Of a stretch of 64,000 bases of DNA, positions 10,556-15,535 are shown piece after piece. Each line of letters begins with the position of its first letter. The stretch's first letter is position 1. The stretch lies in NCBI RefSeq assembly GCF_009914755.1, contig NC_060925.1; one strand, written 5' to 3'. The notes below the pieces were generated by a model that saw only the letters and a list, made by a program, of their open reading frames with translations, was not told the DNA's origin and made no database searches. The translations under genes were made by a program, and so were the position numbers. Source of the DNA: the human T2T-CHM13v2.0 reference genome, Homo sapiens.

Positions 10556-10627
10556 GTGAGTAATCCCAGCCATCTCCTTTTCCTCCTGCCTTGTCCCTTC
10601 TCTCCTGTTTCCTCTCATTTTTGCCTT

Positions 10628-11092
10628 TGTTAATGCAAAATTAAAATGGAGACTGGGCCTGAAAACTCCTGAGCAAACAAAGCCACCCAGGCCTTAGAAA
10701 TAGCCTTATCATTGCTTAAACTGCAAACATAAGTGAAACTCAAGTTGGATTGTAACTAAAAATAGGTAATACTTAACTTGGATCATTTCTGGTAAATGTT
10801 TATGTTAGACAGAAATAAGATTTAACCCTAGCCAATCGTAAGCAGCCAACTAACATAATTATGTGACTAAGAACACTTCAATAAGGTACCTCACCCAAAA
10901 GACAATTATGTAACTGCAAACCTATCAAATTTCTTTATTTTTCTTCCACATTTTCCCAATTAATACTTGTCTCTGACTTTCTGTCATTAAAACATTAGAC
11001 CTCTTTTTGTTTGGTGTCACCCAATTCATGAATTGCTTCTTATTCAAATGAACTCTTTAAAATTGTATTGTGCCTTAGATTTTTCTTTAACA
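10628..11092 (+). mobile_element. 5' LTR of the intragenic ERV
   Basis: TGTTAATGCAAAATTAAAATGGAGACTGG...GATTTTTCTTTAACA, followed by the PBS. Confidence 0.85.
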
Positions 11093-13909
11093 GTTTGGTG
11101 TCAGAAGTAGGATATAAAGTAGAATCTCCCCCAAAGATCCCTAAGAGCAATGGGTGACCAGGCATAGGTACCCATTAAGCCCATTGTGTTCACTGGTTTC
11201 TTCCTGCATTTGTGAGTCACTAGGTAAGTCCCTCTCAGATATCAGGCTTGCAACTTGTGTCCTGAGCTCTCTGAGTTTATTTGAGTAATTTTATTTCTCA
11301 TTTGATTCAGCAGTTAATCTTGGTATTTGACAAGTTCATCTGTTTCCAACAGGAACTATACTAGGTCCAGTATAGTGTACTAGTTTCCAGACAAGGACTG
11401 ATTTCTGGATTGGGATCCAGAGGTCAAATTGGGTACTTGACAGATTGAACTAGGTGTTCAACAGAAACCGAACTGGGGGTCCAGTTGGAGTCCTCAGGTA
11501 GGTAAATTTCAGAAGGGCAAGATATTATGGCTTTGTCAGAATGTACAGAGTCTGGGACTCCTCCATCTGAAACACAGTGATTTCTATGTTCAGATAATAT
11601 GGGCCCAGAACCTGTGACTTTCTAGAGAAATAGGTGTGCCTTACCTATTGAGCCTTACCAGAGATGACTTAAAGTTGCAATGGTCACAGTGAGGATGTTT
11701 AAATCTAGAAAAAATTGTTCATTTAAGGGATGCATTGGGAAAAAATGAGATCCCAAATGTCTCAGAAACAATGATAAATAATTTTGATTGGTATGTAAAG
11801 GTTTCTAAAAGAATGATTTAAAAAAATAGTCTCTCTAAGTAAATCTTTACAATGTGCTAATAAGAAAGTATTCTAAACCTATTAACCTCTTTGATTGCTT
11901 GCTTTTTCCATCTGAACCTACTCAATGCTAACGTCCTTAAAAAATTAGATCCTCAAATGAGCCAGGAGTATCTACAACAACTAAATTTAACTCTTGTTAT
12001 TGCACACATGAACTATTATAAAAGCAACCACTAAGGCTAAAAATAATAAAAACTAATTGGAAATAGGCCAGATAAACTAGGTGTCTCGTTAGTCACTCAT
12101 TTAAAATTTAATCCAGTCTCAATAAGATTGACTCCTAATAATAGGTGAAAATGCCCCAAAACTCCTTCTTGGAGAAGCTTCGTACCCTTTCTCTGGGCCT
12201 TTGAGTTGTGTAAATGTTTTTAAAACACAAGCTTCAGCAAAATGACTCATCAAAAAGAAAAAAGGAGGAATTTTTTAGAAACAAACTGGCAAATGAAAAA
12301 TCTTAATAGTCCTCTCCACAAATATCAATAAAAAGTGCCAGCCATCAGAACAGCTAACTTTAACTAGAGGCTAGATCCAACTAATTAGTTTTATATTATT
12401 ATACCTGGCACATGGCTAAAATTTCAGAACAAAAGCCATGAATTTCTGTTTGCATCTTTCTGTATGTTTACATATATCTACACATGTGTATGCTATTTGT
12501 ACATAATATTATTCTACCTCCAGATGGTATTTATTAGAAACAGTATTAAAGGAGCTCAACTGGCCTAGAGAAAAATAAGCACTTATATAAATTACATATT
12601 TTCTCAGAAGAAAAGAACTTTGCCAAAATGCTTTTCAACTTCATATGACCTGAGTAATCTTTAATAAATGAGAATATTGGTATTAATGAAAGTGAATATT
12701 CCACCTAGTTTTACCCAAATAAGCTCATGTTGTCTGCTATACAATTTGTCAAAAAAATACCTTGAGATGACAGGTAGTTGGTTTTGTTAATATTATGTTT
12801 GCCACTTTAACTATGTTAAATGAAATGACAGGTATTCATTAAATATCTACACCATTTCCAGATAAGACAAACTACTAAAACAAAAATAAAAAAGTGTTCC
12901 ACTTATCTTTTTCTCTCTACCTGATTGTTTCAGAATTTGGAAACTCTTATTAAGTATTTTTATTTTCAATCTGGGTATTTGCATAGGTTCAATAAGAATC
13001 TATTCTCCTTGTAACAGGACATAATTGGGCAAGTCCTTGGCTTGGCTTCTTAGCCTAGAGAGGCTTTTAAAGGTCTAATCTGAGATTTCTCAATTACTAG
13101 ATAGTTTTTAAAAACTAAAGTTGACTGATAAAAAGTCAGTAAAGTCTCTTGGATATCACCAAAGCTGTGGCTAAAATATATTTTAAAATTACTGTTTTTA
13201 TTATACCTATATAAATAATCAGGTCAAATTTAATGAAACTAGATTTATTTTTGCAAAAAAGTTAACTTTGATTTTCGGTAAAAATGGAAAATAAAAATAT
13301 TTTTCTCCAGAATAAAAAAGATTATATTTTAGTAGAAAACTATTGTGCATCCATTGTCAAATTCTAGGCCTGTTCATTTTCTTTGAAGTTTTATTATCTC
13401 CCTATAAACCAGATTGACTCCTGAATTTTTGTTTTTTAGTTCCACTAGAAACTAAAACTGCCCTTTTCCAAAGCTCTGCAAACTGAAACTGGTGACTTTA
13501 AGCTTCAGAAAAATCACTGCAACAGAGCACTTATGCCTTAATGCCAATCTTAATGCCTGCTGCTATCTGGGTCACTCAGAGAGTTTACCAGAATGTTTAA
13601 TGAAATAACCAGAGACATTCAAATTGCAAACCAGTAAAGCACATCACATTGCAACTGCTATCTTCAGTCTACCATTTAAACTTGCCTCAAACTCACCTCT
13701 AGAAATTGTTTCACCTAGCTGCCCTCTAAACTCAAAAACTAAGATCATAATTTGCTCCAAATATTAACTTTGTTTTTTTAATAGAAGAATACTCTGAATT
13801 CCTTTCAAGCAATACAATCTAAAATGAGCAAGTTAGCCTCAATAGCACCCCAAAATAGAAGTTCTTGATATCTTAACAGCTTAACAAGGAGGAGCTTGTG
13901 TTCCTACTG

Positions 13910-14390
13910 ATGTCAAAAGAAATGGTTGAAGATCTCAGCTGGCTTTATGGTGATTCTAGAACTGGGCAACACTTGCCTCCTTAAATTAGAATAAGGTTTC
14001 CAATGAGTTACAGCAGAGGAGATTGGCTTCATAGACAGAAAAAGGTCTGAAGAAAGCAGAAACAAAGAATTTAAAGTGGATTGGCTATTTTAAAACTGGT
14101 TAAAGTTGCAAAAGACAGGAATAGGAAAACAGAATAATAAATAACTGGTTGGTTAACATCAGGTTACTCTTTTGTAAGGATGCCAATTGAAACTGGCCTG
14201 TTTGGGAAATTAGATTTTTAGGTTATTAGGTTATTATCTCTCTCTCCTGATTTTTCCAAAGGCCAGATAAGAATGTAGTTTCTGTTTGATGACTTGAAAC
14301 TTTATCATGGGTGATTCCACTTTGATTTTTAGTCTGTTCTGTTTGGGCCTAGTGCAGGAGCTTAGTGCAAAACAATAGCCTCCTAAAATT
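13910..14390 (-). mobile_element. Nested antisense LTR (MER31-like) interrupting the env remnant
   Basis: Ends GGGCCTAGTGCAGGAGCTTAGTGCAAAACAATAGCCTCCTAAAATTT, the reverse complement of a MER31-type LTR start; lies between the env ISD and TM remnants; boundaries approximate. Confidence 0.55.
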
Positions 14391-14597
14391 TAAAAGACTT
14401 TAAAGAACATACATGAGTTTTTCATCAGATAATATTTATTTGTATTCATTAATTTATTTGATTGGTTAAGTCTTGGCTCCCGAGAATCTTTGCTCAGAGG
14501 AATTTTTCAATCCTTGGCTATTATTCTCCTTATAGTTATTGTATTTACCTCCCCGGTGTATTGAATTATCCTATGGGTTTTAAATGCTTTCCTGCAG

Positions 14598-14771
14598 CCA
14601 CCTGGACGTCAAATGATTGCCATCAGAAAGAGACAACTTGAAGAAACCAACAATGACTATGAAACAGCTGACGGCGGCTACATGACTCTGAACCCCAGGG
14701 CACCTACTGACGATGATAAAAACATCTACCTGACTCTTCCTCCCAACGACCATGTCAACAGTAATAACTAA
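14598..14771 (+). CDS. FCGR2A: FCGR2A exon 7 coding part (ITAM, stop)
   Basis: PPGRQMIAIRKRQLEETNNDYETADGGYMTLNPRAPTDDDKNIYLTLPPNDHVNSNN*; exons sum to 954 nt = 317 aa. Confidence 0.97.
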   Translation, partial: PPGRQMIAIRKRQLEETNNDYETADGGYMTLNPRAPTDDDKNIYLTLPPNDHVNSNN

Positions 14772-14836
14772 AGAGTAACGTTATGCCATGTGGTCATACT
14801 CTCAGCTTGCTGAGTGGATGACAAAAAGAGGGGAAT

Positions 14837-15239
14837 TGTTAAAGGAAAATTTAAATGGAGACTGGAAAAATCCTGAGCAAACAAAACCACCTGGCCCTTA
14901 GAAATAGCTTTAACTTTGCTTAAACTACAAACACAAGCAAAACTTCACGGGGTCATACTACATACAAGCATAAGCAAAACTTAACTTGGATCATTTCTGG
15001 TAAATGCTTATGTTAGAAATAAGACAACCCCAGCCAATCACAAGCAGCCTACTAACATATAATTAGGTGACTAGGGACTTTCTAAGAAGATACCTACCCC
15101 CAAAAAACAATTATGTAATTGAAAACCAACCGATTGCCTTTATTTTGCTTCCACATTTTCCCAATAAATACTTGCCTGTGACATTTTGCCACTGGAACAC
15201 TAAACTTCATGAATTGCGCCTCAGATTTTTCCTTTAACA
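14837..15239 (+). mobile_element. 3' LTR of the intragenic ERV (forms the proximal FCGR2A 3' UTR)
   Basis: TGTTAAAGGAAAATTTAAATGGAGACTGG...GATTTTTCCTTTAACA, colinear with 10628-11092. Confidence 0.85.
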
Positions 15240-15241
15240 TC

Positions 15242-15535
15242 TTTTTTTTTTTTTGACAGAGTCTCAATCTGTTACCCAGGCTGGAGTGCAGTGGTGCTAT
15301 CTTGGCTCACTGCAAACCCGCCTCCCAGGTTTAAGCGATTCTCATGCCTCAGCCTCCCAGTAGCTGGGATTAGAGGCATGTGCCATCATACCCAGCTAAT
15401 TTTTGTATTTTTTATTTTTTATTTTTAGTAGAGACAGGGTTTCGCAATGTTGGCCAGGCCGATCTCGAACTTCTGGCCTCTAGCGATCTGCCCGCCTCGG
15501 CCTCCCAAAGTGCTGGGATGACCAGCATCAGCCCC
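15242..15535 (-). mobile_element. Alu in the FCGR2A 3' UTR, inserted at the 3' LTR end
   Basis: Antisense dimer flanked by a CTTTAACATCTT duplication. Confidence 0.9.

What the first reader, a model, noticed from the sequence alone, without database searches (positions are those of the whole stretch)
10623..15243. Complete provirus architecture inside FCGR2A intron 6/exon 7
Seen: two colinear LTRs (10628-11092, 14837-15239), a PBS matching 17/18 to the complement of the tRNA-Leu(CAA) 3' end, a PPT, and a candidate 4-bp TSD (CCTT before, TCTT after). Removing the ERV and the Alu rejoins 10556-10627 to about 15556-15611, giving a ~130-nt intron that leads straight into the fossil ITIM exon. The 3' LTR also supplies an AATAAA (15163-15168). 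Inference: one integration changed an inhibitory receptor copy into an activating one and provided a poly(A) site; LTR-LTR divergence can date it.
Basis: partly seen in the sequence, partly recalled or inferred. Interest (0 to 1): 0.75.

Follow-up and report, generated by a model that had tools for sequence, protein, structure and literature searches.

The report
Retroviral envelope tail became FCGR2A's ITAM
An ancient retrovirus that landed in the last intron of FCGR2A supplies the receptor's activating tail, a fact already published, and here that tail turns out to be the cytoplasmic end of the virus's own envelope protein read in its original frame.

Summary
There are two colinear LTRs (10628-11092 and 14837-15239; K2P 0.23). 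The primer-binding site matches tRNA-Leu(CAA) at 17 of 18 bases. A polypurine tract is present. The 4-bp duplication (CCTT/TCTT) flanks a site that is empty and contiguous in FCGR2B. Downstream lies a fossil ITIM exon (15612-15695).

The core interpretation is already in print: Lejeune, Brachet and Watier 2019 (PMC6563257) reported that a retroelement brought the ITAM exon and displaced the ITIM exon. That paper found no gag, pol or env homology.

In two sister copies the same reading frame matches Pfam TLV_coat (gamma-type Env) up to the membrane anchor. Stop codons are strongly depleted in that frame (5 of 790 codons against 51 and 114 in the other two). Seven of 15 copies have a stop at the aligned position of the FCGR2A stop. 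So the FcγRIIA tail is the Env TM cytoplasmic tail in its native frame. Both YxxL boxes, with their odd 11-12-residue spacing, are seen in other copies.

The poly(A) inference is not supported: the RefSeq exon 7 ends at 16453, after a different AATAAA.

The parts
10518..10555 (+). FCGR2A exon 6 (C2). Its phase-0 donor now splices into the provirus.
   Evidence: Hub annotation. Aligns to the FCGR2B C2 exon.
10624..10627 (+). Left copy of the 4-bp target-site duplication (CCTT).
   Evidence: FCGR2B has a single CCTT at the empty site.
10628..11092 (+). 5' LTR (TG...CA, 465 nt).
   Evidence: The family has at least 50 matches in the genome.
11096..11113 (+). Primer-binding site, 17 of 18 bases to tRNA-Leu(CAA).
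   Evidence: The chr12 sister copy has 18 of 18.
11093..12550 (+). 5' internal part (leader). No protein family was detected here.
   Evidence: Colinear with the chr7 sister provirus across L040 and L039. Pfam gave 0 hits.
12900..13645 (+). Internal segment shared with pol-less sister copies.
   Evidence: The matches lie a few hundred bases upstream of the env-tail matches.
13789..13919 (+). Remnant of the env TM ectodomain (the region matching the immunosuppressive-domain and CX6CC part of a sister copy).
   Evidence: Aligns to L038 2353-2483. That stretch corresponds to L016 residues about 420-463, within the TLV_coat match at residues 421-486.
13926..14384 (.). Nested, unrelated interspersed repeat (about 460 bp) that splits the env remnant.
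   Evidence: 47 matches elsewhere in the genome. It is absent from the sister proviruses, where 38 nt occupy its place in L038.
14385..14597 (+). Env TM pre-anchor and membrane-spanning segment, in frame with exon 7 from 14445. One stop at 14562-14564.
   Evidence: Aligns to L013 nt 1953-1754, inside its TLV_coat match to profile positions 479-556 of 560. Same frame confirmed.
14588..14597 (+). Exon 7 splice acceptor (tttcctgcag). The AG is ancestral; the T at 14593 is specific to FCGR2A.
   Evidence: AG at 14596-14597 in 13 of 15 copies, and A at 14593 in 15 of 15 copies.
14598..14771 (+). FCGR2A exon 7 coding part (ITAM tail, 57 aa plus stop). This is the Env TM cytoplasmic tail in its native frame.
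14823..14835 (+). Polypurine tract.
   Evidence: Conserved in sister copies.
14837..15239 (+). 3' LTR (403 nt, with a 59-nt deletion).
15163..15168 (+). AATAAA in the 3' LTR. Not the signal of the RefSeq-selected transcript.
   Evidence: hub annotation.
15240..15243 (+). Right copy of the target-site duplication (TCTT).
15244..15547 (-). Alu inserted later at the end of the LTR. Its 12-nt duplication is at 15232-15243 and 15548-15559.
15612..15695 (+). Fossil ITIM exon (AENKITYSLLMQ...). Its acceptor is AT instead of AG, and it has a 7-nt insertion relative to FCGR2B.
16428..16433 (+). AATAAA 20 nt before the annotated end of exon 7 (16453).
   Evidence: hub annotation.

Best explanation
A single, pol-less provirus of a gamma-type (class I) endogenous retrovirus family integrated into the FCGR2B-like last intron of the FCGR2A progenitor. 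Its primer-binding site pairs with tRNA-Leu(CAA). Roughly 50-80 million years have passed since integration.

The exon 6 donor now splices to a CAG acceptor that lies inside the env gene, five to six codons past the membrane anchor of the TM subunit. The donor is phase 0 and the acceptor falls on an env codon boundary. Translation therefore continues in the envelope protein's own frame and ends at the position of the envelope stop codon. The 57-residue signalling tail of FcγRIIA (and FcγRIIC) is thus the cytoplasmic tail of a retroviral envelope protein.

The tail's tyrosines are seen in independent copies of the family, so they came with the virus. This includes the two YxxL boxes with their unusual 11-12-residue spacing.

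The old ITIM exon was left stranded downstream in the 3' UTR and its acceptor has decayed.

Shown: the architecture, the empty site, the env homology, the frame, and the motifs in other copies. Inferred: the order of the acceptor changes, the age, and any function of the motif in the virus.
For: Provirus. The LTR pair, primer-binding site, polypurine tract and 4-bp duplication are all in place, and FCGR2B carries the contiguous empty site. Both ends are colinear with the same sister proviruses on chr7, chr18, chr12 and chr11. The two LTRs are sisters in an ML tree of 13 distinct LTRs, with support 0.81.

Class. The chr12 sister copy has RVT_1 (31.8 bits, cut-off 29.6). It also has Integrase_H2C2, MLVIN_C and RT_RNaseH_2 just below their cut-offs.

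Env identity of exon 7.
- A search with 14380-14836 gave 33 matches in the genome, 30 of them outside the FCGR2A/2C paralogues.
- Of the 17 fetched loci, most align onward across the polypurine tract into the LTR.
- The frame of L013 that holds the exon-7 homologue matches Pfam TLV_coat positions 479-556 of 560 (24.1 bits, cut-off 22.5). The match ends five residues before the exon-7 homologue. L016 matches positions 439-504 (48.5 bits).
- Window 14445-14774 matches the L013 Env C-terminus in one frame, at E = 1.8e-28 genome-wide.
- The exon-7 peptide alone against the L013 tail gives 28 of 53 identical, E = 2e-19.
- A profile of these tails hit 53 proteins among 1.84 billion. One of them, P0026, itself scores TLV_coat at 31.4 bits.

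Frame. Stops in 15 copies projected on FCGR2A codons: 5 of 790 in the FCGR2A frame, against 51 of 777 and 114 of 765 in the other two. A stop sits at the aligned stop position in 7 of 15 copies.

Motifs in the 15 copies: first box Tyr in 5 and Leu in 11; second box Tyr in 10 and Leu in 11; the upstream DY Tyr in 9. Complete double boxes occur in L012 and L021.
Against: FCGR2A's own proviral interior gives no Pfam hit at E <= 1 in the three forward frames. Its env identity therefore rests on DNA and protein homology to sister copies, not on a direct family match.

The L013 TLV_coat score is only just above the cut-off.

The first-box tyrosine is present in only 5 of 15 copies, with D, E, H, F, N, T and P in the others. 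Its presence in the infecting virus is therefore likely rather than certain.

The two LTRs are no closer to each other than to some unrelated copies: K2P is 0.242 to each other and 0.232 from the 5' LTR to L008.

The published analysis reported no env homology.

The family names MER57F and MER34B could not be checked here.
Confidence: 0.85

Rival explanations
1. The ITAM exon arose after insertion from non-coding sequence of a non-autonomous retroelement. On this view the YxxL boxes and the open frame were created in the host lineage, not inherited from a viral gene.
For: Lejeune et al. found no gag, pol or env homology and call the interior a non-autonomous element. Pfam finds nothing in the FCGR2A copy itself. 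The first-box Tyr is seen in only 5 of 15 copies.
Against: The same frame is nearly stop-free in 15 independent copies (5 of 790 codons, against 51 and 114 in the other frames). It continues from a TLV_coat match in sister copies. The second box, the +3 leucines and the stop position are shared. Full double boxes exist in L012 and L021.
Confidence: 0.07
2. The two LTRs are independent insertions or a recombinant composite, so there is no single provirus and the LTR divergence dates nothing.
For: The LTR-to-LTR distance (0.242) is no smaller than the 5' LTR's distance to an unrelated copy (0.232). The tree is star-like. The paper calls the element composite, with LTR and interior given different family names.
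Against: A single 4-bp duplication brackets the whole element. FCGR2B shows the flanks contiguous. The primer-binding site and polypurine tract abut the inner LTR ends. Sister proviruses pair the same LTR type with the same leader and the same env end. The two LTRs are sisters with support 0.81.
Confidence: 0.03
3. The virus lineage had itself captured the tail from a host ITAM-bearing gene before it spread, so the motif is ultimately cellular.
For: None directly. Retroviruses can transduce host sequence, and the tail is longer than that of typical gamma-type Env proteins (recalled, not tested).
Against: The start of the tail is homologous to the start of the tail in more distant Env fragments such as P0026. 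Of the 13 hits scanned with Pfam out of 53, the only host-type proteins were two FcγRII-like receptors that carry this same exon. The other 40 hits were not scanned.
Confidence: 0.05

Closest known systems
Lejeune, Brachet and Watier 2019, Front Immunol 10:1297 (PMC6563257): retroelement insertion creating the FCGR2A ITAM exon
   Same: The same locus and the same element, about 5 kb with LTRs. The same conclusions: it interrupts the FCGR2B-like segment, brings the new IC3 exon with the non-canonical ITAM, and leaves a vestigial ITIM exon. They also note the 11p14.3 copy with a DX2YX2LX11YX2L frame, which I recovered as L012.
   Different: They report no homology to gag, pol or env. The word 'envelope' does not occur in the text. 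Here the exon is placed in the env TM cytoplasmic tail, in its native frame and ending at the aligned position of the sister copies' env stop. The primer-binding site, polypurine tract, duplication, ancestry of the acceptor and LTR divergence are also given.
ITAM-like YxxL motifs in retroviral envelope proteins: BLV gp30 TM cytoplasmic tail and MMTV Env
   Same: A retroviral Env carries tandem YxxL boxes. In BLV they lie in the TM cytoplasmic tail, can transmit activation signals and are needed for infection in vivo (passages of PMC4848583). An MMTV Env ITAM appears in the title and start of the abstract of PMC2213037 (search listing only).
   Different: Those are exogenous delta- and betaretroviruses whose motifs act for the virus. 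Here a gamma-type endogenous Env tail has been grafted onto a host receptor. No sequence relationship to the BLV or MMTV tails was tested.
Domesticated env genes (syncytins; HEMO of the MER34 family)
   Same: Host use of coding sequence from an endogenous retroviral env. Lejeune et al. assign the interior of this element to MER34B. HEMO is described as the only full-length ORF of the ERVMER34 family (start of the abstract of PMC12704712).
   Different: Those are whole env genes kept as separate genes. Here only the last 57 codons are used, as a terminal exon of an Ig-superfamily receptor. Relatedness to HEMO was not tested, and no intact env of this family appeared in the genome search (the longest open frame listed was about 200 aa).

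Membership tests
Endogenous retrovirus provirus (LTR element) | Two direct LTRs bounded by TG...CA. | tested here: met
Endogenous retrovirus provirus (LTR element) | Target-site duplication bracketing the element, with an empty site in a homologous sequence. | tested here: met
   CCTT/TCTT, 3 of 4 bases. The FCGR2B flanks are contiguous.
Endogenous retrovirus provirus (LTR element) | tRNA primer-binding site just inside the 5' LTR, and a polypurine tract just before the 3' LTR. | tested here: met
   The primer-binding site matches tRNA-Leu(CAA) at 17 of 18 bases. The polypurine tract is at 14823-14835.
Endogenous retrovirus provirus (LTR element) | gag, pol and env coding regions. | tested here: not met
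   The FCGR2A copy gives 0 Pfam families in three forward frames. Its interior is 3.7 kb, and only env TM remnants are recognisable, through sister copies. It is a deleted, pol-less derivative. The chr12 sister copy has RT and integrase remnants.
Gamma-type Env (Pfam PF00429 TLV_coat) | Score above the Pfam gathering cut-off (22.5 bits). | tested here: inconclusive
   Met for the sister copies L016 (48.5 bits) and L013 (24.1 bits), and for the database hit P0026 (31.4 bits). Not met for the FCGR2A copy itself. The link to FCGR2A is by homology.
Class I (gamma-like) ERV, as against class III ERV-L, which also uses tRNA-Leu | 4-bp duplication, MLV-type pol and integrase, and a TLV_coat env. That ERV-L has a 5-bp duplication and no env is recalled. 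| tested here: met
   4-bp duplication. MLVIN_C and RVT_1 in a sister copy. TLV_coat.
RepeatMasker families MER57F (LTR) and MER34B-int (interior) | Best match to those Repbase/Dfam consensus models. | not testable with these tools
   No repeat library was available. The names are taken from PMC6563257.
Canonical ITAM | YxxL/I, then 6-8 residues, then YxxL/I. | tested here: not met
   FCGR2A has YMTL, then 12 residues, then YLTL. Sister copies have 11 or 12. The motif is known as non-canonical.

The most novel reading that the evidence does not exclude
The activating tail of FcγRIIA/IIC is the native cytoplasmic tail of a gamma-type retroviral envelope glycoprotein. It is entered through a CAG that encodes a glutamine just past the Env membrane anchor, and it is read to the Env stop. 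On this reading the virus itself already carried the double YxxL with its odd 11-12-residue spacer, plus two further tyrosines. It would have been an ITAM-like Env tail of the kind known from BLV gp30. Primates would then have acquired a self-signalling IgG receptor by borrowing a viral signalling or trafficking module, not by chance exonisation of junk.
Probability: 0.75. Interest if true: 0.65.

Novelty: already known. Interest (0 to 1): 0.45.

Why it matters
FcγRIIA (CD32A) is the only activating IgG receptor that signals without the FcR γ chain. It is central to phagocytosis, to platelet activation by immune complexes and to antibody-dependent enhancement. That its tail came from a retroelement is already published.

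Knowing that the tail is an envelope cytoplasmic tail read in its original frame turns a curiosity into a testable idea. The non-canonical spacing and the extra tyrosines would then be viral design features. The tails of other genomic copies become natural variants for comparison.

It also corrects the published statement that the element has no env homology. And it shows that divergence-based dating at this locus is confounded, because the FCGR2A-FCGR2B flanks are far less diverged than the LTR pair.

Tried and rejected
Pfam on the FCGR2A provirus interior, read through with X in three forward frames: 0 families at E <= 1. The reverse frames were not scanned.

ARAGORN found none of the intron-containing tRNA-Leu(CAA) genes in L072 and L074-L076. 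The anticodon was read by eye from the sequences against the Leu(CAG) gene.

The nearby annotated Leu(CAA)-like gene (L043) is not the best primer match, at 16 of 18.

ERV-L membership, suggested by the Leu primer site, was rejected (see membership test).

No intact env of this family turned up in the genome search. The first ~20 residues of that query were Alu-derived and produced many irrelevant hits over query residues 1-50.

A large Pfam scan of five sister loci failed for size. Only the chr12 copy was then scanned, so gag and pol content of the chr7, chr18 and chr11 copies was not assessed.

L024 and L026 were dropped before the 15-copy counts because they cover only part of the exon.

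The one supplementary file held for PMC6563257 contained none of the terms MER34B, MER57F or LTR, so its Supplementary Table 3 was not seen.

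
Full report

Yes.

LTR pair. The direct-repeat scan and a pairwise alignment show two colinear LTRs at 10628-11092 (465 nt) and 14837-15239 (403 nt). Both start TG and end CA, and the 3' copy has a 59-nt deletion. Over 395 aligned sites there are 48 transitions and 30 transversions, giving p = 0.197 and K2P = 0.233. In a multiple alignment with other family members the value is 0.242.

Primer-binding site. Three bases inside the 5' LTR lies TGGTGTCAGAAGTAGGAT (11096-11113).
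- Four genes of the same genome carry the 3' end ...ATCCCACTTCTGACA. Read by eye against the window's Leu(CAG) gene, they are intron-containing tRNA-Leu(CAA) genes. ARAGORN did not call them.
- The site matches their complement plus CCA at 17 of 18 bases.
- It matches 16 of 18 for tRNA-Leu(CAG) in the window and for the nearby Leu(CAA)-like gene, and 7-9 of 18 for four other tRNAs of the window.
- It is the only site in the window within 2 mismatches.
- The chr12 sister copy has the perfect 18 of 18.

Polypurine tract. A 13-nt run (14823-14835) ends one base before the 3' LTR.

**2. One integration, with an empty paralogous site**

The upstream flank (window 10200-10577) and the downstream flank (15557-16100) map to adjacent stretches of FCGR2B, 33 nt apart. 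Local alignments carry the upstream flank to ...TTGCCTT and start the downstream flank at CTTCTTTCC, overlapping by 3 nt.
- FCGR2B reads TTG-CCTT-CTTTCC.
- FCGR2A reads TTG-CCTT-[provirus]-TCTT-CTTTCC.

This is a 4-bp duplication with one later substitution.

A minus-strand Alu (15244-15547) entered afterwards exactly at the LTR end. It duplicated 12 nt that include the last 8 nt of the LTR and the TCTT.

Without the provirus and the Alu, the intron is about 124-128 nt, against 110 nt in FCGR2B. It runs into a fossil exon (15612-15695) that still reads AENKITYSLLMQ..., against FCGR2B AENTITYSLLMH.... The fossil acceptor is AT instead of AG, and a 7-nt insertion shifts the frame after the ITIM.

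The same provirus is present at 98-99% identity in two further FCGR2A/2C-type copies of this assembly.

**3. What is already in print**

Lejeune, Brachet and Watier 2019 (PMC6563257) describe this case. I read the abstract, the outline, the section 'Genesis of FCGR2A' in full, and passages of the Introduction and Discussion. They report:
- a ~5 kb LTR-flanked segment interrupting the FCGR2B-like part of FCGR2A;
- LTRs called MER57F and an interior called MER34B by RepeatMasker;
- a new IC3 exon with the non-canonical ITAM encoded by the element;
- a vestigial ITIM exon downstream;
- traces of the element in Otolemur, marmoset and macaque;
- another copy at 11p14.3 with a similar potential frame.

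A 2024 review repeats this (one passage of PMC11659932).

The same paper states that no homology to gag, pol or env was found. The word 'envelope' does not occur in it.

Five full-text searches found no paper that assigns the exon to env. The library holds open-access papers and bioRxiv only.

**4. What the exon is**

FCGR2A exon 7 (coding part 14598-14771) lies inside the provirus, 51 nt upstream of the polypurine tract.

Copies elsewhere. A genome search with 14380-14836 gave 33 matches, 30 of them outside the three FCGR2A/2C paralogues. Seventeen loci were fetched. Most align right across the polypurine tract into the start of a same-family LTR. Two of them (L024, L026) cover only part of the exon and were left out of the counts below.

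Frame. When the remaining 15 copies are projected onto the FCGR2A codons, they look like protein. Stop codons number:
- 5 of 790 gap-free codons in the FCGR2A frame;
- 51 of 777 and 114 of 765 in the other two frames.

Pfam support from sister copies.
- In L013 (chr11), the frame that contains the exon-7 homologue matches Pfam TLV_coat (PF00429) at profile positions 479-556 of 560 (E = 1.9e-5, 24.1 bits, cut-off 22.5). The match ends five residues before the exon-7 homologue.
- In L016 (chr18), the frame holding the env TM ectodomain matches positions 439-504, including a CX6CC motif (E = 7e-13).

Mapping onto the window. The DNA under the L013 match aligns to window 14382-14581. The DNA under the L016 match aligns to window 13789-13919. 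Between these two env pieces the FCGR2A copy carries a nested, unrelated ~460-bp interspersed repeat (13926-14384). It has 47 matches elsewhere and is absent from the sister copies.

Protein-level matches.
- Window 14445-14774 matches the L013 Env C-terminus in a single frame at E = 1.8e-28, with one internal stop at 14562-14564.
- The 57 exon-7 residues alone match the L013 tail at 28 of 53 identical, E = 2e-19.
- A profile of ten such tails, searched against 1.84 billion representative proteins, gave 53 hits at E <= 0.001, most of them short ORF fragments.
- Of the 13 hits I scanned with Pfam, P0026 scores TLV_coat at 31.4 bits, and two (P0035, P0048) are Ig-domain FcγRII-like receptors carrying this tail.

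Class of the family. The chr12 sister copy has RVT_1 above its cut-off, and Integrase_H2C2, MLV-type integrase C-terminus and RNase H just below theirs. The family is therefore a gamma-like, class I ERV. The FCGR2A copy is a pol-less member, and its middle segment is shared with other short copies.

Conclusion. Exon 7 is the cytoplasmic tail of the Env TM subunit in its native frame.

**5. How the graft works**

Frame match. Exon 6 ends in phase 0. The acceptor tttcctgCAG|CC falls on an env codon boundary, so the Env frame is read directly.

Acceptor. The AG at 14596-14597 is present in 13 of 15 sister copies, where it is part of two glutamine codons. FCGR2A has T at 14593 where all 15 copies have A. 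This change removes a second AG three bases upstream and lengthens the pyrimidine run.

Stop. A stop codon sits at the aligned position of the FCGR2A stop in 7 of 15 copies.

Tyrosine motifs in the 15 copies.

| Position | Copies with the residue |
|---|---|
| Upstream DY tyrosine | 9 |
| First-box Tyr | 5 (others D, E, H, F, N, T, P or gaps) |
| First-box +3 Leu | 11 |
| Second-box Tyr | 10 |
| Second-box +3 Leu | 11 |
| Fourth Tyr, near the C-terminus | 12 (FCGR2A has His here) |

Complete double boxes with an 11-residue spacer stand in L012 and L021. L012 is the 11p14.3 copy of the paper. Spacers of 11 or 12 recur in other copies.

The virus therefore brought the acceptor AG, the frame, the stop and most probably both YxxL boxes with their non-canonical spacing. 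What the motif did for the virus is inference. By analogy with BLV gp30, tandem YxxL boxes in a TM tail can signal and are needed for infection (passages of PMC4848583).

**6. The points that do not hold or need care**

Poly(A). The RefSeq-selected exon 7 runs to 16453, 20 nt after the AATAAA at 16428-16433, in FCGR2B-homologous sequence. The LTR's AATAAA (15163-15168) is read through (hub annotation). AATAAA occurs 135 times in the window.

Dating. K2P of 0.23-0.24 corresponds to very roughly 50-80 million years at 1.5-2.2e-9 substitutions per site per year. These rates are recalled, not computed here. The range is compatible with the reported traces in a strepsirrhine.

But the family tree is star-like. 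The two LTRs are sisters with only 0.81 support, and the 5' LTR is as close to an unrelated copy (0.232) as to its partner (0.242).

More puzzling, the FCGR2A-FCGR2B flanks are far less diverged than the LTRs:

| Comparison | K2P | Sites |
|---|---|---|
| Upstream flank | 0.080 | 1833 |
| Downstream flank, first block | 0.125 | 803 |
| Downstream flank, second block | 0.138 | 281 |
| LTR pair | 0.233 | 395 |

The insertion must have been into FCGR2B-like sequence. The simplest reading is therefore later gene conversion of the flanks that stopped at the insertion. Selective constraint on the flanks is an alternative. This was not tested.

**7. Verdict**

The main interpretation is right but already published. 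The poly(A) claim is not supported.

The new element is the identification of the ITAM exon as the Env TM cytoplasmic tail read in its native frame. I could not find this in print, and it contradicts the published 'no env homology'.

Noticed in passing
window 8641-10577 and 15557-16652, against FCGR2B (L036/L032): The FCGR2A-FCGR2B flanks are much less diverged (K2P 0.080, 0.125, 0.138) than the provirus's two LTRs (0.233). This suggests gene conversion of the flanks after the insertion, or constraint on them. It complicates the published order and timing of events.
   Followed up: partly
window 13926-14384: A nested ~460-bp interspersed repeat of another family splits the env TM remnant. It has 47 matches elsewhere in the genome at about 68-71% identity for full-length units. 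Its family was not identified.
   Followed up: partly
window 14593: FCGR2A has T where 15 of 15 sister proviruses have A. The change removes an upstream AG and extends the pyrimidine tract of the exon 7 acceptor.
   Followed up: partly
window 14751-14753: FCGR2A has His where 12 of 15 sister copies have a fourth tyrosine (in a D-Y-[I/V]-N context) near the Env C-terminus.
   Followed up: no
L018-L021 (chr12:33.5 Mb, chr4:16.2 Mb, chr5:107.0 Mb, chr4:174.9 Mb): A sub-group of sister copies has a longer tail, with several extra residues between the membrane-proximal part and the first tyrosine box.
   Followed up: no
own genome chr1:160578684-160733798 (L047-L068): Twenty-two identical tRNA-Leu(CAG) 3' ends are spaced about 7.4 kb apart just upstream of the window. 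This is a tandem array of tRNA-bearing units.
   Followed up: no
L043 (chr1:160874498-160874581) and chr1:160956287: The annotated Leu(CAA) gene near FCGR2A resembles the Leu(CAG) genes except around the anticodon, and has a different 3' end (...CTTTTGACA). It is not the best match to the primer-binding site, at 16 of 18.
   Followed up: partly
own genome chr1:160858210 and chr1:160939999: This assembly holds three copies of the provirus-bearing FCGR2A/2C-type 3' end, at 98-99% identity. The provirus therefore predates the segmental duplications.
   Followed up: no
P0035, P0048 (database proteins, species not given): These are FcγRII-like receptors with Ig domains. Their tails keep both YxxL boxes with an 11-residue spacer. 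They are probably FCGR2A orthologues.
   Followed up: no
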